Assembly (NCBI RefSeq): GCF_006345805.1 | Contig: NC_043007.1 | Location: forward strand, 73,222,001-73,286,000 | Origin: Octopus sinensis | Taxonomy: Eukaryota | DNA: 64,000 bases | Direction: 5' to 3' | Shown: piece by piece, positions 1-45,400 of the stretch | Layout of the letters: every line of letters starts with the position of its first letter | How positions within the stretch are numbered: the stretch's first letter is position 1 | Translations under genes and position numbers: made by a program | The notes under the pieces: generated by a model | What the model was told of the DNA's origin: nothing | The model's input: the letters and a program-made list of their open reading frames with translations, nothing else | Databases searched by the model: none

Positions 1-533
1 AGTGGTTTTCTGATTGCAACCCTCCTGTGAAATCCAGCTTTGTGCAGCTCCCGGCAAACAGTTTTTGTGGAAACTGGCTTCTCGAGGTGGCCATTAAGCT
101 CTGCAGTAATTTTGGGAGCTGTACTTTTGTGATCCTTTCTAACAATTTGCGTAAGAGTCCAAACTATCTGAAAGTTTTGGTTTTCTTCCAGAGCTTTGTT
201 TCGACAAGGAGGTTTTTCCCTCTTTCTCAAAGGCTGTGTCATTACTTTCAAGACAGTACTTCTTGATACACCAAACATTTCGGCTGTTTTTGTTATACTA
301 GCACCTGCCATACGAGCACCAATAATTTGACTGCTTTGAAAGCCCGACAGATCTGTCATTTTAATGAATTTTAATTACCTTTTTGTGATGATATCTGAAA
401 AGAAACAGCAATTTTAGCAAAGCATATTAAGCAACACTAATAAGAAAATAAATAAACTTTTGACAGTTTTATAAATATTTCAAAATTATGATGCTATTAT
501 GCAAGGTGTTTCCATTATTTTGTCCAACCCCTG
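1..533 (-). mobile_element. Tc1-like DNA transposon, 5' part with frameshifted transposase (runs off the window)
   Basis: Terminus TA|CAGGGGTTGGACAAAATAATGGAAACACC at 533. ATG at 359 gives MTDLSGFQSSQIIGARMAGASITKTAEMFGVSRSTVLKVMT/AFEKEGK...SGRKPKLS/...TAPKITAELN...VSTKTVCRELHKAGFHRRVAIRKP (paired-like HTH, GRPR-like motif), with two frameshifts. Confidence 0.9.
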
Positions 534-3190: not shown

Positions 3191-4540
3191 AGTTCTAAAT
3201 AGCTATTAAACAAATAGTTTGCAATATCATATTCTCCTTGTTTTCTATCTTAAGATCACTGGATATGAACAAACTCAATTAACATTGCAATTTTTTTTGT
3301 ACTTCAGAGAAAAAGACTACTTTACAGAAAAAGACTAAATTTAAATATCAATATTCCATATTTTAATCTAATAAACATTTGACACAGACAACATCTGTTA
3401 TTTGTTGTCATCACAAGTTTCTAACAATGACATGACAATTTTAGAAAATAGAAAACAGATTAACTGCTGAGGCAACGGCATTCAAAATGTTGTTCCAACC
3501 AAAAATTCACAGTGTCATGGTATCACCCAGACAATCAGATATTGTTATATACCACTGGTCAACTGGCCACAATGCGCTTTGCATTGTTTTACCTTTGAAA
3601 TGACATCACCCTGCTGGCTAGGCGAGCAGGCCAACATTCCTTTATTCTATTCTCAGAATGGAATAAGCAGAGCAAGAGCACACACAAAGACAGAAAGTGT
3701 CAATGAAGAGGTCAAAATGAGTGAAGAATGAATACATAGTTTGTGTGTTTATTTGGGGGAAAAAAATGACCATCCCAAAATACAATATATGTTTCAACAC
3801 ATGGTTTCACATCAGGAATCTTGCAACACAAATTCATAAACATAAGTGTGTGTGTGTGTCACAGTGTCTGTGTTTCCCACCCCAACTACATGACAAACCA
3901 ACTGGTGTTGGTTTGTTTACGTCTCTATAACCTAGCAGTTCAGCAAAAGAGACTGACAGAATAAGAACCAGACCTAAAAGGTAAGCACTGTGTTCAATCT
4001 GTCTGACGAAAACTTTTCAAGGTGGCGCCACAGCATGGCCAGAGTCTAATGACCAAAGTATGTAAAAGATAAAAGAAAAATACTAAAGCTAATCATGGTG
4101 CAGGCATGGTAAGAAGTTTGTTTCCCAGCCACATGATACCGGGTCAGCCCCACTGCATGGTACTTTGGGCAAGTGTCTTCTGTTATAGCTTCAGACTGAC
4201 CAAAGACTTGCGAGTAGATTTAGTCACAGAAACTGAAAGAAGCCCATCATATACATATATATGACTGTGTGTCTTTGTCCTCAACCACCACTTGACAACT
4301 GGTGTTAGTGTGTTTACGTCCCTGTAACTTATCAGTTCAGTAAAAGAGACTGACAGAATAAGTGCCAAGCTTAAAAAGATAATAAATATTATGGGAGTGA
4401 GATTTCTGGCAATTTGTTGGGCTTGAGAAGTCAAGCTAAGTAAAATTGTAGTCATCCATACATTCAAGCATGTCCTTTACAGCCATGCCCCACCACTCCC
4501 TCACTCAGCCTAGCAGTCTTTGTCTAGTGGGCTCATGGAC

Positions 4541-7199: not shown

Positions 7200-8200
7200 A
7201 TTATTACTATGTTTCAAAATTTCCTATGTCTCCATAGAACAAAGTTCACATCCATCCCTACTATTTTTATAAGGCTGTGCCTTTTTTATTATATCCCATC
7301 TTAGGTTAAATTCGATATTTTTTTCCTTCAGTTCCCAAATTTTACTAGACAGCATTGTGCAACCCGCCTTATGTTTAAGTCTAAAAGAAGAAAAATGATT
7401 GTTCAAACGTTTCTTTAGGTCTATGGAACATCTGAAATAAAGATACATTTATAAATTACATTTTAAACCAGACAATGACCAGATACCGGACATTTTGATC
7501 TAATTCTACAATTACAACTTGGGGGGGGGGTGATTCCCGATATTAGTATTATTTAGGAACAAGCTGTTTTTATTTTCATAACTAGAGCTATTACTAGCAT
7601 TAGTGTTATTTCCCTTATCTATAATTATATTGTTATGTAAGTTAGAGTTGTTTGTTACTAATTTTTTCCTAATTTCCTCACTTTCCACATTTTTATTATT
7701 ATCATTCATATTATTGATATTATTATTGTTTATATTAATGTTATTATTATTATTATCATTATTATTGTTGTTACTATTTATTCCATTTCTAGCTAACTTA
7801 ATATTTTTTCTATTTAGTCTAGCTATTATGGTACCCATATTTGGAAGAGTAGAGTATGATATTCTCACTGATTTACTAGAAATTATTTTATAATATTTAT
7901 GGGAAGCAGGGAAGTTTTTTCTAGTATGGACATAAATTTGCCGTATATGTTCGTAGAAATTGTACAGTTGAAGGGAATATTTAGCCATACAATATTTTTT
8001 CTTTTGAATTTTTTTATTTGAGTAAGGGTGAGAAAGATTAATGTTATCCATATCCTTTAAGGATTCGTTATTCCCTTTAGTCTTATATTTATTAGGTTCT
8101 TTATCAGTGGGAGAGATTTTTATATAAATAAATTTAAATATAGTGAAATTAGAATTTCTTTTATATTCTCCTATATGGGATTGCAAAAAATTCTATATAT
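7200..8200 (-). mobile_element. Decayed Penelope-like retroelement (RT thumb, Cys linker, C-terminal GIY-YIG endonuclease)
   Basis: KRKNIVWLNIPFNCTISTNIYGKFMSILEK/NFPASHKYYKII...VRISYSTLPNMGTII, then an Asn-rich tract, SCNCRIRSKCPVSGHCLV*NVIYKC, and KKRLNNHFSSFR...LSSKIWELKEKNIEFNLRWDIIKKAQPY...CELC. These are typical PLE C-terminal motifs, with frameshifts and stops. Confidence 0.85.
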
Positions 8201-20456: not shown

Positions 20457-21000
20457 TTCTTCTTCATTACCCTTCTTATGAAGCAAGATGGTATTCAACT
20501 CTTTCCATAGTGCAGGTATTTTACCCTCCTTCAGACAGCAACTGAAGCTTTGAACAAGGCTTTTCCATAGCTCTTCGCCTCTGCACTTTAACATTTCTCC
20601 TGTTATGCCCTCTTCCCCAGGAGCTTTATCTGTTTCTATTAGTTTGAAGGAAGTTTCAATTTCACAGACCAGAATAAGTGGCACTTCTTCCAACATTTGT
20701 GATGGTGGAGGATAAAGCTTCACTGATGATTTATAAAAGTTAAGGTAGAAGGTTTTGCATATGTCTTCCATCTCCCGATTGTCTGTCACCCTGAACGTCT
20801 TGGTTTTTAAGTGCTATCTCTCTTGCAGGTTATTAGACTTTTCCTTTCTTCTGCAGCTTGCATCAGCACCTGCTGTCTGATTGCTTTGCAGAACATGGAA
20901 TACTTCAGGTGATTCATAGTTTTCCATTTTTCTAGCATCTTGTTCATTTCCTCCAAGATTCTTCTGTCAAGCTCCTATCTGCTCTTATCTTCCACTTGCA
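20457..21000 (-). mobile_element. RTE-clade LINE ORF fragment (region preceding the RT core)
   Basis: ICKTFYLNFY...EVPLILVCEIETS...KAPGEEGITGEMLK...CLKEGKIPALWKELNTILLHKKGN matches the KAPGxDGI / IPxxWK / LxKKG non-LTR RT entry motifs. Confidence 0.8.
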
Positions 21001-22038
21001 ACTTTTAATTATCTGAACCAGTAAATTGTAGTCCTCATCAAACTCTTTAAGTTCACTCCGAATTTCCCTCTTGATAGTGGCATAAAGAAGTGCTAGTCTC
21101 TAAATGTGGAAGAGGGAGACTTAGGAAGACATGGAATGAAGTAGGGAAGAATGACCTCCAGATGTCAAGTCTCATGGAGGAGAAGACAAAAGATTGAGAT
21201 GATTGGCAATTTGCTGTGCTTGAGAAAACCTGTCCACATCAACACAAATAGGGTCCTAAAAGCACATCAATTATATCTAAACTTCTGTACCCAATCTGTC
21301 CCTAATGTATCTTCCCTCCTCTACTTATCTTCCTAACACCCATCCCTCCATCATTCTTCTGACTATGGCACTACTCATTCAGCTGCTGTAATTTTGAGAA
21401 CAGAACTGCACATATTCTGTTCGTCTGCTGCTGAACTACCAATTACCACTCTCTCAGGAATCACTTCCTTTGTCACCTGCATTTTCATAATCAACTATTC
21501 CCACCTTATTTCCTTTCACCTCCTCTTTCTCTGCACACACCTCCTTTTGCCAATGGTAGTCTTCTCTCCATTACCTCTATTTGTCTCTCACCATTTCCAA
21601 CCTCTTCTACTTCTGACTTTCATCCCTGGCACTGTGTGTCTCTCTCACACCCTAACACATTTCACACCATCTTTGCTGTCACCTTTTAACTCCCTGACCC
21701 ACAACTACATCCTCCACCTTCACCTCCAACAGACATTCATCATTGACCACATTCTCCACCAGTGCTCACCACTCACTATTTCCCTCTTTTCATCTGCCAC
21801 TATCTTTCACACTCCTGCAAACTTACTTACCCACCCATATCACTTCTCTTATATTCACCTTCCTGTAACTTGTGGCTACACCCTCACACGTCTTCACCAC
21901 CATCCTCTTCCCTTTGCAACTGGGGTAACCATGTACCTCCTCCAAAGCTAGACACCTTCTCCTTTCCTATTTATTTTAACCTCACATCGTCTGGAATAAA
22001 ACTACACACATAAATATATATACATAGACACACACATA

Positions 22039-22947
22039 TGAGGTGGTATCAAAAAGTTCCTGGACTAGTCACGTTTAATAAAAAATAAATTATTTACTTA
22101 AGTTTTAATATCATCTCCTTTAAAATAGTCACATCGCACAGCAATACACCAGTCCCAGCATTCCTGCCACTTTTGGAATCTGGTCTGGAAATTGTTTCCT
22201 GTAAGCAAGTTGAAGACCTTCTGCGATTCACTCTGGATCTTGACAATGGTGTTAAAATTGTGATGTTTTAGCTGCATTTTTATCTTGGGGAAGAGATGAG
22301 AATAGGGTGGGTGTGGAAGTGATACCATGTTGTTTTGGGTAAGAAACTCATAAGTGAAGAGAGCTCAGTGACAGGGTGCATTGTTGTGAAGAATCCAATA
22401 CTTCGTGAATGTTAGGATTACCTGCATTGAGCCATACGACACCATCAACATCAGCAATGTCATTGATTATCCTCTGACGATCCTCATGCACAAGCTGATG
22501 AATTTTCTCTACATTTCCAGAAGTGACACTCACGGCAGATCTTCCAGATTGCTCATTGTCTTCCAGGAATGTCCTTTGTCTTCCAGGAATGTTCTTCTGC
22601 TTTTGAAGCACCTGTGCCACAGGAAACATTGTGTATGAGCCATTGTCTCATCGCTGTAAGTGTGCCAAAGCATGCTTAGTGTCTCTGTAGCAGACTTCTC
22701 AAGTTTCACGCAAAATTTCATGCTGGCACTTTGTTCCAACTTCCTGTCCACAACAAAAATCACAGACTACAACATACATATAATAAAAAAAAACACAAAT
22801 TTCACAACTTGCAAAGTAAACACAGCGATGTCACTCAGCACACTGCCTCATGAAAGTCATTGCTAGCTCTCACTGCACGTGCAACCATTGCTGCTATCTA
22901 TTGGCACACTACAGAACTAGTCCATGAATTTTTTTGACACGACCTTG
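22039..22947 (-). mobile_element. Mariner-like element, internally deleted (909 bp)
   Basis: TIRs TGAGGTGGTATCAAAAAGTTCCTGGACTAGT / ACTAGTCCATGAATTTTTTTGACACGACCTTG with TA TSD. Transposase relics MKFCVKLEKSATET...LEDNEQSGR...HPPYS..LFPKIK...WQECWDWCI..RCDYFKGD. Confidence 0.9.
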
Positions 22948-23546: not shown

Positions 23547-24064
23547 TAATTCCATTGCCACAGGAAGCACATATGGAAAGTGCTTCCTTGCGGCTTTAAG
23601 GCTCTTATTTCCAGCAATATAGGTGCTACTCAGCACCATTAGTCACAATTCATGACGACTGAATTTTACTTTTTAGTTTATATTGCATGTAGCCACCTTC
23701 ATTATTTTATCATGTTCACATTACCATTGTGCTGAATTAACCATAGAATCATATGGTAATACTATATACTGACAGACAGGATTTAGCCAAACCATCCAGT
23801 GATGGCATAGTTACCACTGATGAGTTTAATTTTAAGCGAAACTAGACTAGTATAGTGACCTTGCTCGCTGTGAGGTGGTTATCTCCCCAATTGGTATATG
23901 GAATGTTCTTTTAACTCTTATTTCTAGCAATGTAGGTGCTATCCTGCACCGTTAGTCACAATTAGTGGCAATTGCATTTTTTTTAAAGTTTTATATTGCA
24001 TATAGCCACCTTCGTCATTTTATATATACATGTGTGTGTGTGTGTGTATATATATGTATATATA

Positions 24065-32926: not shown

Positions 32927-33103
32927 CACGACGTAGAGTTTCCAGGAAAGGACGATCGTATCTAATAACCATCGTCCCCAGAAGGGCTCAAAAAGGGTAA
33001 CTGGTAGGACGGGCGTCAGCAAGAAGAGTGTCCCCATCATACTACTAAGGAATACAAGACAGCTAAAGGTCACTCCGAGACATACTGCCGAGCGACTGGT
33101 CAT
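32927..33103 (-). CDS. LCLAT1: Lysocardiolipin acyltransferase 1, coding exon 1 (59 aa, MTSRSAVCLGVTF...SWKLYVV)
   Basis: ATG at 33103. Hydrophobic N-terminus resembling LCLAT1 (S-x-x-G-x-x-F-x-L-x-P-x-L-P...RW...W). Ends phase 0 at a GTAAGT donor (32926) and joins exon 2 in frame. Confidence 0.88.
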
Positions 33104-39987: not shown

Positions 39988-40346
39988 GGCACAGGAGTGG
40001 CTGTGTGGTAAGTAGCTTACTAACCAACCACATGGTTCCGGGTTCAGTCCCACTATAGCCTCGGGCTGACCAAAGCCTTGTGAGTTGATTTGGTAGACGG
40101 AAACTGAAAGAAGCCCGTCGTATATATGCATATATATGTATGTGTGTGTATATCTTTGTGTGTCTGTGTTTGTCCCCTCCAACATCGCTTGACAACCGAT
40201 GCTGGTGTGTTTACATCCCCGTAACTTAGCGGTTTGGCAAAAGAGACCGATAGAATAGGTCCTGGAGTCGATTTGCTCAACTAAAGACGGTGCTCCAGCA
40301 TGGCTGCAGTCAAATGACTGAAACAAGTAAAAGAGTAAAGAGTAAG
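39988..40346 (+). mobile_element. SINE family A
   Basis: Homology to 1016-1420, with a short internal deletion at CCCACT|ATAGCC. Confidence 0.85.
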
Positions 40347-41283
40347 ATAGAAGAGAGATCCATATCGGGACTAGTCTAAGAGGAAATTACAATGCTTGCA
40401 ATACAATTTTGATTTGATTGAGAAAAAAAAAATGCAAATTTAAAAAAATCTAAACAGTAGATTAGCAGACTCATTAGAATTTTTTTTTAAATGTCTTGTG
40501 GTATTTAATTAGTCACTTCTATGTTTTGAGTTCAAATCTTACCATAATCAACTAGGAATTTCATCCCTTGGAGTTGGGGAACATTAAAATAAAGTTACAG
40601 TTAAGTACTGGATCAATTTATATACCTATAATACTTCCTAGATGTATTATAAGAGAATGCAATTATACAGTATTTACATCTGACAGATATTTGTCCTCAT
40701 CTTATTTGTTGTTAACACGTTTCCGCTGATATACCCTCCAGCCTTCATCAAGTGTCTTGAGGAAATTTCGAACCTGGGTTCTCATTTTTCTATGTTATTA
40801 TTATTATTATTATTATTATTCAGGTTACTGCCTGGGATCGAAATAATAATAATAATTCTTTATATTTTAATTGATTTTTGTCAGCCCTTGTGGCCAATAA
40901 AACGAATTATTATTATTATTAATATTATTATTATTATTCAGGTCACTGCCTGGGATTGAACTCAGATCCTTGGGGTTTGTAGCCCACACTCCTAACAACT
41001 ACGCCATATGGCTGTGGGCAATTATGTGAGAACTAGAAATTTGTGATATTTTAGGCAAAGTAAATTATTTGATTGCTATAAAACTCTTATGAACAAATTT
41101 TTGTTTTGTTATTTATATTGGTTTCTGTACTAAGGCTATCAGGTTTGTCAGCCAGTATCTATTTTTATTCATTTATTTTTTTATTAATTAATTTATCTTT
41201 AACTCGGCCCAGGAATTACGTTTTTCTTTTCAGATGTTCAACTTTAAGGTTAAAAAAACTTGTTCATACACACACACACACGC

Positions 41284-41314
<31 letters not shown>

Positions 41315-41438
41315 GATATCTGAGCGTTATACTAATACATCTGTTTATTTTGTACACCACCTGTCTTCGTCTTTTGTTGTTTTTTTCGTAAACTCTCCCT
41401 ATATATATATATAGAAAATAGAATAGAAAATCTGAAAT

Positions 41439-41484
41439 CCACCTGATGAATGTCCTGAGAAGAGACATGAAACAATTGTAGTGG
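41439..41484 (+). ncRNA. Intact minimal type I hammerhead ribozyme (family H3)
   Basis: CCAC-CTGATGA-ATGTC-CTGAGAAGA-GACAT-GAAA-C-AATT-G-TA-GTGG: stems I, II and III all pair, all core nucleotides are present, GUA cleavage site at 41478-41480. Confidence 0.8.
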
Positions 41485-42007
41485 CGAATATAATTTTATT
41501 TAATTTATATTAAAATTTTTTTATGTATTGGATTAAGTCTTTCTTTGTTTGATTTGCAAAATAGTGGTTTTGTCTCTAATTAATATTATATATTATTTTA
41601 CTATAAAATTGGATTCAATCCTAAATCTGATTTTCCCTGTAAATTTGGATTTATTCCCTAATATTTATTATTATATATATATATATATATAGTTTTTTAT
41701 CTTTTAAAAATGCTAGCTAATAAACTCCCTGCCTATATCCTACATACGAAAATCAATGTCCATTTTTTTTTACTTTCATATATCTCGAACATTCTAATTA
41801 ATAGTAGTAATTAATTGGTGTTACAGAATTAACTGATATTAGAAAAAGTCGAATCGACTTCAATAGTTTCAGATAGAGATTCCAGAGTTCTCTCCCTTAC
41901 TCTATGTCTATTGCGATCTCAATTTTTTATTTTCTGTTTAAGAAATGTTAGGTTTTACAACGCAACTGTTTGCAGCATCAGAAAATCATCATCATTATTA
42001 TTATTAA

Positions 42008-42400
42008 TGCGGTGAGCTAGCAAAATCATTAGCACACCGAGCGAAACACTTAGCGGTATTTCGTCTGCGTTACGTTGTGAGTTCAAATTCCGCCGAGGTC
42101 GACTTTGCCTTTCATCCTTTCGGGGTCGATAAATTAAGTACCAGTTACGAACTGGGTCGATGTAATTGACTTAATACCTATGTCTGTCCGTGTTTGTTCC
42201 CTCTGTGTTTAGCCCCTTGTGGGTAATAAAGAAATAGGTATTTCGTCTGCCGTTACGTTCTGAGTTCAAATTCCGCCGAGGTCGACTTTGCCTTTCATCC
42301 TTTCGGGGTCGATAAATTAAGTACCGGTGAAACACTTGAGTCGATGTAATCGACTACTCCCCTCCCCCAAATGTCAGGCCTTGTGCCTTCAGCAGAAGCG
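42008..42400 (+). mobile_element. Tandem SINE family B copies (one full, one 5'-truncated)
   Basis: Core GAGTTCAAATTCCGCCGAGGTCGACTTTGCCTTTCATCC occurs twice. Confidence 0.85.
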
Positions 42401-45400
42401 ATTGTTATTATTATTTATTAGACTTCGGTCAGTTCAGAAAGAACAGTGATTCATTCTTAAGCGATGCATCACAAAGAATATATATTTCAGAATATGATTT
42501 AAGGCTTTAGAATATTAACGCATTCAGGCAAATACTTAAACGAGTTGAAAAATATGCTGTTCAAAATTTTGTTTTGTTATAAGTATGATGAATAAAACGA
42601 TGTAAGCAATAATGTTCTATAGTTTTATTGTAAATTTTTAAAGTTTATAAATTAAAAAACAAAATTCTCTGTCCAGTGCGCTTCTGGCAAATGTAAAAGT
42701 AAAAAAAATTAAGAAGCACCGAAATAGAGGCTAAGTTTTGAGCTTTTGAATATAGCAATGGTCAGGATAAAAGTCCAATCAGACGAACTTCTCTACTGAA
42801 AAGTCGAAGGGTTGGGCTTGGATGAAAGAGTAAAACTAAGTTAAAGATAACTTGTAGATTAATAAAGAGAAATACAAAACTAGATAGGTTTATTAGTAGC
42901 GTAGCAAGACCATATTGCCGTCCAGGACAGCCCTTCATTTTGGCATCTCCATTCTCCAGGCTCGCAAGCCTTTACAGGCTTATTCAGCAGACTCAGAAGT
43001 ACCTTTCTCCCATAAAAACGACACCTGGGTGGAACCCCCCCCCCCTCATTTACCACTAGCTACGTTATTGGAATTAATTTGAGAGGAGAGAAATTACAAA
43101 GTGAAATTGTGATGTTTGACAATGAATCGGAATGCTGCTATTGTTGGTGCTGCTACTGCTGCTGCAGGTAGTGATGGTGGTTGACGTGATACTTTAAAGG
43201 TATTTTTGTCCTTATGATAATCTTTCTTGTGTGGTGGTATCAATATCAACTGCCGTCCATGGGCAATGTTTTCAAGGCCTTGAAAATGTTTTGTTTCGCT
43301 TGCATATCACAGTGTCAAATTTCTTAGTAAACCATTTTACAAAATGTAGGTGCGATAGCATTAATATATTCAATGAATAAAACATCAAAACGCAAGCTAG
43401 AAAGTAGAACATGGTGAGTAAAAAAAAACCCTCAACAACTTTATTAGTCAATGACTTTAAAAAAAATTTTCTCAACAAGTAGAAGAGAAATGCTGAAGTA
43501 GAGATGAAAAAATCGCTAAAACTGTTATTTGCTTTACAAAAGTATTTGAAAATTGTTCGTGTGTTAATTCTGAGATAAGTCAGTGTGTAGAAAAACACAA
43601 TAGATTGTTTGAATAGAAGGGGATAATTAAAGGGCCAGGGAATTACAGGTGTTGGACATTTTGACAGCCCTTTTACTGCCGTCTGCTTGACGTTGCTGAT
43701 TCAAAGATGATTAAACTAACATCAGGCGTTTTTTTAATGTTTCTCCCGTTCTCTCCCTCCTTTCCTATCTCTGTCTGTCTGTCTCTCTCTCACACACGCT
43801 TGCACCCCCCCCCCACATACACACACACTGTATGTGTATATTTCATCACACACGTACGAGTATCTGTATGTGTCTGCCCCTAATGCTAAAATGTACTGTC
43901 ACTAAAACAGGCTCATTGTCCAGTCAGCCGTTCCAAAGTCTGCATCCAATCAGTTCCTTCTGATGAATTACAAACATTTCGTCAAATTCATGTGTAGCGG
44001 GAGGGACTGCTGATGGCAGAGGGTGCAAGAGGATGCCATCTGAACAGAAGGGAAAGGAATTAGTAAAATTTGAGCTTGAACTTTTAGAAAAAATGCTGTT
44101 GATACTGTTCAGTCTTATGTTAGTTTATAGCCTCGAATCTTCTAAGAATAAGAACTAAGAGAGACAGCCATTCATTGATAGACAAGACTGGAAATATGGT
44201 ATTTATTCCACTCAACCTTTGAAAGTATTAAAGAAATTAACATTAGAGAGGTAATAAAGAAACTGAAGAAGATCAAAAATAATCATTTTCTTAATGTTAG
44301 ATTTAAAAGAAATATAAATGTCATTTGGAAATCAGATAAGTTATGAGCTAAGCAGTTTTGATAGTTAATTTTATAATTAAAAGATATTATTTAGGAGCTT
44401 GTTTGGGTTAATATTCATTATTTGATTATTTGATGATAGTCATTAAAACGCTAATTGTGTGTGTACGCGTGGAATGTTCTTGGTGACTTCAATTTCCAAA
44501 ACCAAATATTTACCATCCTTAATCTCATTTTCAACTCCAAACTTACAACTGACTCTATGCTGGTCACATCCCCTGACCGCTGTCTAACCAAAGGTCACAT
44601 AAACGCATCCACATATTGCATACCCACCTGCACCTTGAATTGTCTGAGATCCCCATTAATTTCATATTGGCTAACCTTGGCAGCAAATGTGCTTCTCCCC
44701 TAATGTAGGTCACTGAAACTGTCTTATTAATTATGTCCCTTCCCAGGAAGGCGAGCTGGCAGAATTGTTAGTACACCAGGCAAAATGCTTAGCAGTATTT
44801 CTTCCATTCTGAGTTCAAATGCTACTGAGGTCAACTTTACCTTTCATCCTTTTGGGGTTGACAAAATAAGTACCAATTGAACACCAAGGGGTATTCAACT
44901 TTACGCCTCCCCCGAAATTGCTGGCTTTGGTACTTATTCTATTGAACTCTTTTGCTGAACTGCTAAGTTATGGTGATGTAAACACACCAACACCGGTTGT
45001 CAAACAGTGGTGGTGTACAAACACAGACAAAAATGCACCCACACACACACACACAGAGTGAGTGTCTTTCAGTTTCTGTCTACCAAATCCACTCTCAAGA
45101 CTTCAGTCAGCCTGAGGCTTTTAGTACAAGACAATTGCTTAGGACACCACACAGTGGGAATGAACCTGGTACCATGTGGTTGGGAAGCTAACTTCTCACT
45201 ATACAGCTACAACTTCTGAAAGCAAGATCACTACTACTGAGCCCAGGTAAACATAACAATACATCAACACTGACGCAACTGCAATGTCAATAACCTCACT
45301 GGCCACCAACCCCATAATGACATGAACACTGCCAACAATAATGCCAGTGGAACATGAATTGCCATGCTCTGATTCTATCACACTTTGTAGAACTCATTCT

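What the first reader, a model, noticed from the sequence alone, without database searches (positions are those of the whole stretch)
41439..41484. Apparently fully intact minimal hammerhead ribozyme
Seen: stem I CCAC/GTGG, core CUGAUGA, stem II AUGUC/GACAU (extendable by CU/AG around a GAGA GNRA loop with one bulged A), GAAA, stem III A-U plus C-G closing a palindromic AAUU loop, and a GUA triplet. Predicted cleavage is 3' of 41480. This is the best candidate for a still-active ribozyme in the window.
Basis: partly seen in the sequence, partly recalled or inferred. Interest (0 to 1): 0.72.

Follow-up and report, generated by a model that had tools for sequence, protein, structure and literature searches.

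The report
Hammerhead in spliced Penelope retrotransposon fragment
The hammerhead-ribozyme motif is real and lies in a 260-base, intron-less fragment of a young Penelope-type jumping gene; this lone copy is predicted not to cut itself, but the family's spliced and unspliced copies likely record which RNAs these elements copy, which is an open question.

Summary
Observation confirmed: 41439-41484 is an intact type I minimal hammerhead (only descriptor hit in the window; 0 of 300 shuffles give one as good). It is not a host ribozyme. It lies in a 260-bp fragment (41415-41674, between (TA)n tracts) of the terminal repeat of a Hydra-type Penelope-like retrotransposon; I found the RT + GIY-YIG parent. 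48 exact copies and at least 629 related arms exist. This copy joins exon 1 to exon 2 across a 0.9-1.1 kb GT-AG intron of the parent, so it was likely copied from spliced RNA, through an uncut ribozyme. Of 100 junctions listed, 58 are exon-1-spliced, 36 unspliced, 6 spliced from a 3'-UTR donor; 18 of 18 repeats in front of an ORF keep the intron. Only 6 of 368 arms start at the cut site. Core and stems are invariant across 10 variants, but helix III is predicted to form only in a dimer. 'Still active' is likely for the family (slow, dimeric), unlikely for this lone copy, which lies opposite to the nearby LCLAT1 gene. The scan noted spliced Hydra leader copies before on other DNA, this genome included.

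The parts
41400..41413 (.). (TA)7, left side of the microsatellite target
   Evidence: sequence; family arms end in (TA)n in 89 of 98 sampled
41415..41674 (+). spliced, 5'-shortened copy of the terminal repeat (pLTR plus tail) of a Hydra-type Penelope-like element; single arm, no ORF
   Evidence: blast of 29 other loci ends at 41415 and 41593/41691; 1 difference in 245 nt of exon 2 from the parent's 3' repeat; right end ambiguous within 41670-41691
41415..41429 (+). last 15 nt of the 27-nt exon 1 (starts 12 nt after the inferred start site; last base A where the family has G)
   Evidence: parent copies have this exon followed by GTATGT
41429..41430 (+). exon 1/exon 2 splice junction (intron of 912-1120 nt absent)
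   Evidence: intron GT...TTTTAG in 6 long copies, 912-1120 nt; a 7th spans a duplication; junction classes
41439..41484 (+). type I minimal hammerhead motif
41472..41479 (+). self-complementary ACAAUUGU; predicted 8-bp helix III of a double hammerhead
   Evidence: cofold MFE of two 46-mers is the double hammerhead, -24.2 kcal/mol against -7.9 per monomer
41480..41481 (+). predicted cleavage site, 51 nt downstream of the splice junction
   Evidence: GUA triplet; cleavage not shown
41589..41593 (+). short 3' end of family arms (inferred first reverse-transcription start)
   Evidence: 49 of 98 sampled arms end here; by analogy with PMC11167929
41590..41674 (+). about 85-nt tail up to the long 3' end (inferred second start); the parent's ATG follows about 45 nt later
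   Evidence: 49 of 98 sampled arms end at the long end; HHR-to-ATG 266-308 nt
41673..41691 (.). (TA)n, right side of the target
   Evidence: sequence

Best explanation
This is the hammerhead motif of a young Hydra-type Penelope-like retrotransposon, lying in a 260-bp intron-less fragment between (TA)n tracts that was likely made when the element's reverse transcriptase copied the front end of its own spliced, uncut RNA; it is predicted to cut only slowly and as a dimer, and likely not at all from this lone copy. Shown: the parent (RT + GIY-YIG ORF between direct repeats 5.5-7.7 kb apart), the intron, three junction classes, two fixed 3' ends, (TA)n targets, an invariant core. Inferred: transcription starts at the Inr-like TC-A-CTTC; the cap-proximal intron is spliced; the endonuclease nicks (TA)n; RT starts internally about 110 or 195 nt past the cut site and reads back through the uncut ribozyme and the splice junction to near the RNA 5' end, giving short dead copies. 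Long ORF-bearing copies come from templates that keep the intron at this place. In the parent RNA the two hammerheads would pair through ACAAUUGU and cut slowly or with the element's protein (about 60% likely); this locus cutting as a monomer is about 10% likely.
For: Repeat: 50 matches at 91-100% identity, 48 exact 46-mers, 937 exact matches to a downstream 31-mer, 68+186+131+244 arms in four subfamily patterns. Parent: L032 minus strand ORF of 826 aa with one in-frame stop, Hydra motifs by inspection; 137 matches to a 299-aa piece. Splicing: exon 1|GTATGT in subfamilies A, B, C; 58 exon-1-spliced, 36 unspliced, 6 UTR-donor-spliced of 100 listed of 107 (counted by eye); donor G|GTAAGT in L031 and L052, joined form with ORF end in L147 and L151. 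Start site: of 56 spliced arms 9 begin at the A, 40 inside exon 1, 7 at most 9 nt upstream. Uncut template: 6 of 368 listed arms begin within 2 nt of the cut, against 8 in the next 9 nt, p 0.05-0.11. Constraint: 30 of 30 core and stem positions invariant in 10 variants, while N7, loop II, the 10.1/11.1 pair and the 3' flank vary; CAAUUG changes to CGAUCG, still palindromic. Dimer. Literature: minimal PLE hammerheads did not cut as monomers and cut weakly as dimers (PMC4209133); in the anole PLE, RT starts internally, uncut RNA is the main template and cutting needs the protein (PMC11167929).
Against: No cleavage, transcription or splicing was seen in RNA: only assembled contigs were available. 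Covariation is not significant against shuffles (60 of 500 reach the score; 11 of 13 pairs never vary), and the 10 variants are related, so invariance is not 10 independent tests. Pfam does not recognise the parent protein and PDB has no match to its first 299 aa; Hydra membership rests on motifs, not on a tree. Subfamily B and C sequences misfold in their local context (penalty 3-8 kcal/mol) and so does the window copy in a 250-nt context (6.9), while in a 106-nt context its stems I and II form at 0.8-1.0. The slight excess of starts at the cut site leaves some in vivo cutting open. No target-site duplication can be read inside (TA)n.
Confidence: 0.85

Rival explanations
1. A stand-alone active ribozyme that cuts a host transcript at this locus.
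For: Core intact; stems I and II form at 0.8-1.0 in a 106-nt context and the monomer hammerhead fold costs only 1.4 kcal/mol there; GUA is an active triplet in natural hammerheads (PMC1636495, passages).
Against: Helix III probability 0.03; no second copy in the window; 2 differences from the parent type, so a recent insertion, one of 48 identical motifs; LCLAT1 runs on the minus strand with its ATG at 33103, so the motif is not in sense in that transcript. A plus-strand host transcript was not excluded.
Confidence: 0.07
2. The hammerhead matters in the long copies: both hammerheads cut, the capped spliced leader is discarded, and the unit is closed into a circle (or RT jumps ends), so RT reads from the tail into the intron-bearing 3' repeat and rebuilds the promoter. 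The short spliced copies come from the RNA pool that escaped cutting. This adds to the best explanation.
For: 0 of 18 repeats in front of an ORF are exon-1-spliced, against 27 of 44 classed arms in an unselected sample (Fisher p 3e-6; by locus 19 of 35, p 4e-5). L160's 5' repeat runs past the start site; the two repeats of one insertion differ by 1 base in both of 2 valid pairs, against 6-7 between L052 and L055. The cut lies 51 nt past the acceptor. Circles were proposed in PMC4209133.
Against: Unspliced nuclear pre-mRNA, read-through from tandem copies or template jumps give the same picture without cutting. No pile-up of ends at the cut site. In vitro the anole PLE does not need its hammerhead (PMC11167929). 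Naiads thrive without canonical hammerheads (PMC8557442).
Confidence: 0.2
3. A non-autonomous non-LTR retrozyme: a short tandem hammerhead monomer that spreads as a small circle.
For: Short, non-coding, dispersed, hammerhead-bearing copies; retrozymes are argued to derive from PLE repeats (bioRxiv 10.64898/2026.07.22.740005, part 1 of 5).
Against: No short head-to-tail pair among the 48 exact copies; close pairs are head-to-head. Each subfamily has coding or intron-bearing parents, and spliced copies stop at the start site instead of running round a circle.
Confidence: 0.04
4. The motif is a catalytically dead relic kept only as part of a protein-binding or splicing signal.
For: Templates were copied uncut; the 10.1-11.1 pair is lost in 6 of 10 variants; local misfolding in subfamilies B and C.
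Against: Variation falls on the positions that catalysis tolerates (N7, loop II) and the palindrome is kept by a double change; an unpaired base on each side of stem II is common in published Hydra hammerheads (File S2 rows).
Confidence: 0.15

Closest known systems
Hydra clade of C-terminal EN+ Penelope-like elements (Craig et al. 2021, PMC8557442; passages and supplement rows seen)
   Same: RWK-like, DKT, CxCX5C, CxxC and CxH motifs, no CCHH, (TA)n targets, hammerhead with 4-bp stem II often flanked by an unpaired base on each side, palindromic helix III, inverted 5' arms and a tail.
   Different: Unit 5.5-7.7 kb against under 3 kb; tail about 85 nt against 30-40; a 1-kb leader intron and a second 3'-UTR donor; over half of the copies that reach the junction are spliced. 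Hammerhead and N-terminus differ by eye from Hydra-1_Obim; no alignment was computed.
[quoted passage not shown]
   Same: Short helix I, 2-bp palindromic helix III, solo and opposite-strand pairs, intron ending just before helix I as in D. virilis Penelope, dimer expected.
   Different: No G10.1-C11.1 pair; helix II 4-5 bp; the intron ends 9 nt before helix I, so splicing does not alter the 4-bp stem.
Poseidon PAc of Anolis (Frangieh et al. 2024, PMC11167929; parts 1-2 of 4 read)
   Same: Two fixed 3' ends about 110 and 195 nt past the cut, AT-rich targets, copies read through an uncut hammerhead.
   Different: There the ORF starts inside stem II; here it starts about 270-285 nt after stem I. 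No spliced genomic copies are described in the parts read.
D. virilis Penelope (Schostak et al. 2008, PMC2377424; passages)
   Same: Start site in the pLTR, short exon 1 (46 nt there, 27 here), 5'-UTR intron, spliced and unspliced RNAs.
   Different: 75-bp intron there, described as retained during transposition; here intron-less genomic copies are the commonest junction class.

Membership tests
Type I minimal hammerhead of PLEs | Core CUGANGA, GAAA, UH with helices I and II | tested here: met
Type I minimal hammerhead of PLEs | Short palindromic helix III/loop 3 allowing a dimer | tested here: met
   ACAAUUGU; cofold MFE is the double hammerhead
Type I minimal hammerhead of PLEs | Located in the terminal repeat of a PLE | tested here: met
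   same repeat on both sides of an RT-EN ORF in L032/L031, L052, L055
Type I minimal hammerhead of PLEs | G10.1-C11.1 pair (typical, not universal) | tested here: not met
   A-U here; unpaired in 6 of 10 variants; also absent in many Hydra rows of File S2
Type I minimal hammerhead of PLEs | Self-cleavage after H17 | not testable with these tools
   contigs only; 6 of 368 genomic arms start at the site, not significant
Rfam hammerhead families | Covariance-model match | tested here: not met
Hydra-clade PLE | Single ORF, RT then C-terminal GIY-YIG | tested here: met
   motifs by inspection of the L032 translation, which has one in-frame stop; Pfam gave no hit
Hydra-clade PLE | RWK motif and DKT in place of DKG | tested here: met
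   RIKWK and SDKT; definition
Hydra-clade PLE | CxCX5C linker, no CCHH, CxxC and CxH near the conserved E and N | tested here: met
   CTCRDKSKC, CYLC-SNE, CRH; one cysteine only inside the GIY-YIG core (by inspection)
Hydra-clade PLE | Insertion into (TA)n | tested here: met
   89 of 98 sampled arms
Hydra-clade PLE | Generally under 3 kb (typical, not diagnostic) | tested here: not met
   repeat-to-repeat 7746, 6095 and 5509 bp
Hydra-clade PLE | RT phylogeny within Hydra | not tested
   no reference proteins held as usable sequences; no tree built
Non-LTR retrozyme | Short head-to-tail tandem monomers with no coding parent | tested here: not met

The most novel reading that the evidence does not exclude
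The hammerhead is what makes Penelope-like elements keep their intron: it cuts 51 nt past the splice acceptor, throws away the capped spliced leader, and joining to the cut in the 3' repeat puts the intron-bearing promoter back in front of the ORF. RNA that escapes cutting gives the short spliced copies such as this one. The genome then holds a record of two template pools, and the record rules out an antisense-only template for this family.
Probability: 0.2. Interest if true: 0.75.

Novelty: new member of a known kind. Interest (0 to 1): 0.4.

Why it matters
As a ribozyme at this locus it matters little: hammerheads are expected in Hydra-type PLE repeats. The family is useful because it is young, abundant and has a long intron, so each insertion shows which RNA was copied. 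Why PLEs keep introns and what their hammerheads do are both called unknown in PMC8557442, and PMC3846280 proposed an antisense template to explain intron retention. Precise GT-AG junctions from two different donors show that sense, spliced RNA is copied, and the absence of the exon-1-spliced form in front of ORFs (0 of 18) makes the link between cutting and intron retention testable. I did not find intron-less PLE genomic copies in three searches, but Arkhipova 2003 and 2006, Evgen'ev and Arkhipova 2005 and Lunse 2017 were not read, and earlier notes of this scan report such spliced copies.

Tried and rejected
Rfam: no hammerhead match. RNA: no RNA holder listed; the runs are contigs of uncertain kind, they cover parts of the repeat, show no joint across the intron and cannot show ends, so they are no evidence either way. 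Pfam and PDB on the parent protein: nothing. Covariation test: not significant. First pass at 5' ends in the mixed sample was dropped because AT-rich fold-backs extend alignments spuriously; replaced by exact-anchor counts. A non-templated G at spliced 5' ends (cap copying) was considered; most cases can be explained by the inverted arm or the target, so it is not claimed. One loose-pattern flag of an ORF leader behind a spliced arm (L112) was not borne out: (AT)n follows its anchor and 0 of 98 arms read through. In one search the L052 pair is invalid (one repeat found twice) and was dropped. An ORF starting inside stem II as in PAc: rejected, the ATG at 41450 is followed by one codon and a stop. 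Retrozyme: rejected as above. Lunse et al. 2017 was not held; only its title and a review's account (PMC6765202, passages) were seen. PMC544870 (passages) gave nothing on the 10.1-11.1 pair; the effect of A-U there is untested here. Earlier findings near this place: none; by sequence: one unrelated note.

Full report
Observation. The motif is as described: CCAC CUGAUGA AUGUC [CUGAGAAGA] GACAU GAAA CAAUUG UA GUGG at 41439-41484 on the plus strand. A type I descriptor finds only this site in the window; 11 of 300 dinucleotide shuffles gave any hit and none a hit as tight. The core heptamer alone is at chance level, the folding energy is ordinary (z -1.12), and Rfam has no match.

It is a repeat. 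The genome (2.7 Gb; an octopod cephalopod to judge by a 96% protein match) gave 50 matches at 91-100% identity and 48 exact copies of the 46-mer. Similarity to other copies spans 41415 to about 41674-41691, with (TA)n on both sides. A downstream 31-mer has 937 exact matches. For the first 100 of these places, 98 arms could be scored: 49 end near 41590, 49 near 41674, and 89 are followed by (TA)n. Many insertions are head-to-head pairs with one short and one long arm, the known PLE pattern of an inverted arm and a tail (PMC8557442, passages).

The parent. Some tails continue into a common sequence. In L032 this leads to an 826-aa ORF with one in-frame stop, with a second repeat 7746 bp downstream. 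By inspection it has RT motifs, RIKWK, DKT, a CxCX5C linker, a GIY-YIG domain without CCHH, and CxxC and CxH near the end, the diagnostic set given for the Hydra clade. Pfam and PDB do not recognise it and no tree was built. A 299-aa piece has 137 matches in the genome. By eye it is not the published Hydra-1_Obim, and its hammerhead string is not in that supplement.

The window copy is spliced. Long copies have a 27-nt exon, GTATGT, an intron of 912-1120 nt in 6 copies, and TTTTAG just before ATCTGAAATCCAC. The window joins the exon directly to ATCTG. Genome-wide for this subfamily, 100 of 107 junctions were listed: 58 exon-1-spliced, 36 unspliced, 6 spliced from a second donor about 210 nt after the stop codon (counted by eye; donor and joined forms). 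Subfamilies B and C show the same. Of 56 spliced arms, 9 begin exactly at the A of TC-A-CTTC, 40 within exon 1 and 7 at most 9 nt upstream; PMC3846280 (passages) names TCACT as Inr-like in a rotifer PLE. I infer a transcription start there. The window copy begins 12 nt downstream of it and differs from the parent type at one base in exon 1 and one in 245 nt of exon 2, so it is recent.

Long copies differ. Of 30 best ORF loci, 23 showed the start motif, 18 had the hammerhead within 420 nt, and all 18 keep the acceptor; in the unselected sample 27 of 44 classed arms are spliced (5 more were other or truncated; Fisher p 3e-6). L054, outside that set, may have the UTR-donor junction in front of an ORF. 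L160's front repeat runs past the start site, and in 2 valid pairs the two repeats of one insertion differ by 1 base. So ORF-bearing insertions were not simply copied from the capped spliced mRNA.

Does it cut? For: in 10 variants all 30 core and stem positions are invariant, while N7 (U, A, C), loop II, the 10.1/11.1 pair and the 3' flank vary, and the loop III palindrome is kept by a double change in 2 variants. The variants are related and the covariation score does not beat shuffles (60 of 500). An unpaired base on each side of a 4-bp stem II is common in published Hydra hammerheads. Against monomer activity: helix III has probability 0.03 and the monomer MFE pairs the core with loop III; two copies fold as a double hammerhead with an 8-bp helix III (-24.2 against 2 x -7.9 kcal/mol). 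Cervera and de la Pena (parts 1-2 of 4) saw no cleavage by a minimal monomer and low cleavage by dimers; Frangieh et al. (parts 1-2 of 4) found protein-assisted cleavage, internal RT starts and uncut RNA as the main template. The genomic record agrees: among 368 listed arms holding the sequence just 3' of the cut (68 of 68, 100 of 186, 100 of 131, 100 of 244; copies with C at the pattern's first place are missed), 6 begin within 2 nt of the cut and 8 in the next 9 nt (counted by eye; p 0.05-0.11). RNA data were contigs only and say nothing.

Surroundings. Four coding exons of an LCLAT1-like gene lie on the minus strand at 33103-32924, 19106-18906, about 16670-16560 and about 5970-5827. The insertion is 8.3 kb upstream of its ATG on the opposite strand. 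A plus-strand host transcript was not found by Pfam on the 140 longest of 153 open frames and is not excluded.

Mechanism. Shown: anatomy, parent, junction classes, end positions, target. Inferred: the parent is transcribed from the repeat, the first intron is spliced, the endonuclease nicks (TA)n, and RT starts in the tail and copies back through the uncut hammerhead to near the 5' end, leaving a promoterless fragment. The family's hammerhead likely cuts slowly as a dimer; this lone copy likely does not. The boldest reading left open (about 20%) is that cutting removes the spliced leader and end-joining restores the intron-bearing repeat in long copies; unspliced pre-mRNA or read-through templates explain the same data without cutting.

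Novelty. A hammerhead in a Hydra repeat is a new member of a known kind. Intron-less genomic copies were not found in three literature searches, with key subscription papers unread. Notes of this scan, seen after my own result, report spliced Hydra leader copies in this and other genomes; I did not check whether they are the same family. The 3'-UTR-donor class, the 0 of 18 result and the cut-site count are not mentioned in the few lines shown. Supplements of PMC4209133 and PMC11167929 were not opened and may list related motifs.

Noticed in passing
window 33103-32924, 19106-18906, about 16670-16560, about 5970-5827 (minus): Four coding exons of a lysocardiolipin acyltransferase 1-like host gene.
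   Followed up: yes
window 23817-23860 (+): Degenerate hammerhead-like motif of another family: CUGAUGA, 5-bp stem II, GAAA, then an apparently duplicated CTAG and a mismatched stem I.
   Followed up: partly
window about 9878 (-) and 24179 (-): Two more core-plus-stem-II matches without a valid helix I/III.
   Followed up: no
window 7215-7519 (-): Broken fragment of a related GIY-YIG endonuclease, 43-46% identical to the parent's C-terminus, inside an LCLAT1 intron.
   Followed up: partly
window 3-374 (-) and 22533-22766 (-): Tc1/mariner transposase fragments (Pfam HTH_Tnp_Tc3_2, HTH_48).
   Followed up: no
window 41985-42420 and 40000-40360: Copies of other common interspersed repeats next to the insertion.
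   Followed up: no
L031 minus strand about 3768-3795 (G000:C11 about 54120200): About four TTAGGG units sit exactly at the exon 1 splice donor of one long copy; cause unexplained.
   Followed up: no
L031 and L048: A 1.4-1.5 kb tandem duplication that contains exon 1 and the start of the intron, giving two donors for one acceptor.
   Followed up: partly
L032 minus strand ORF, about residues 490-590: Asparagine-rich stretch after the RT core, like the N-rich inserts described for rotifer Penelope elements (PMC3846280, passages).
   Followed up: no
L069 (G000:C8704 about 20816-21204): Four arms fold back exactly at the loop III palindrome, forming perfect hairpin insertions.
   Followed up: partly
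L004/L012 (G000:C23 about 24044235-24044640): Two arms separated by host-like sequence that recurs beyond one arm, suggesting a long duplicated target.
   Followed up: no
L039 and L048: LINE-type elements (endonuclease and RT frames) inserted inside the PLE intron.
   Followed up: no
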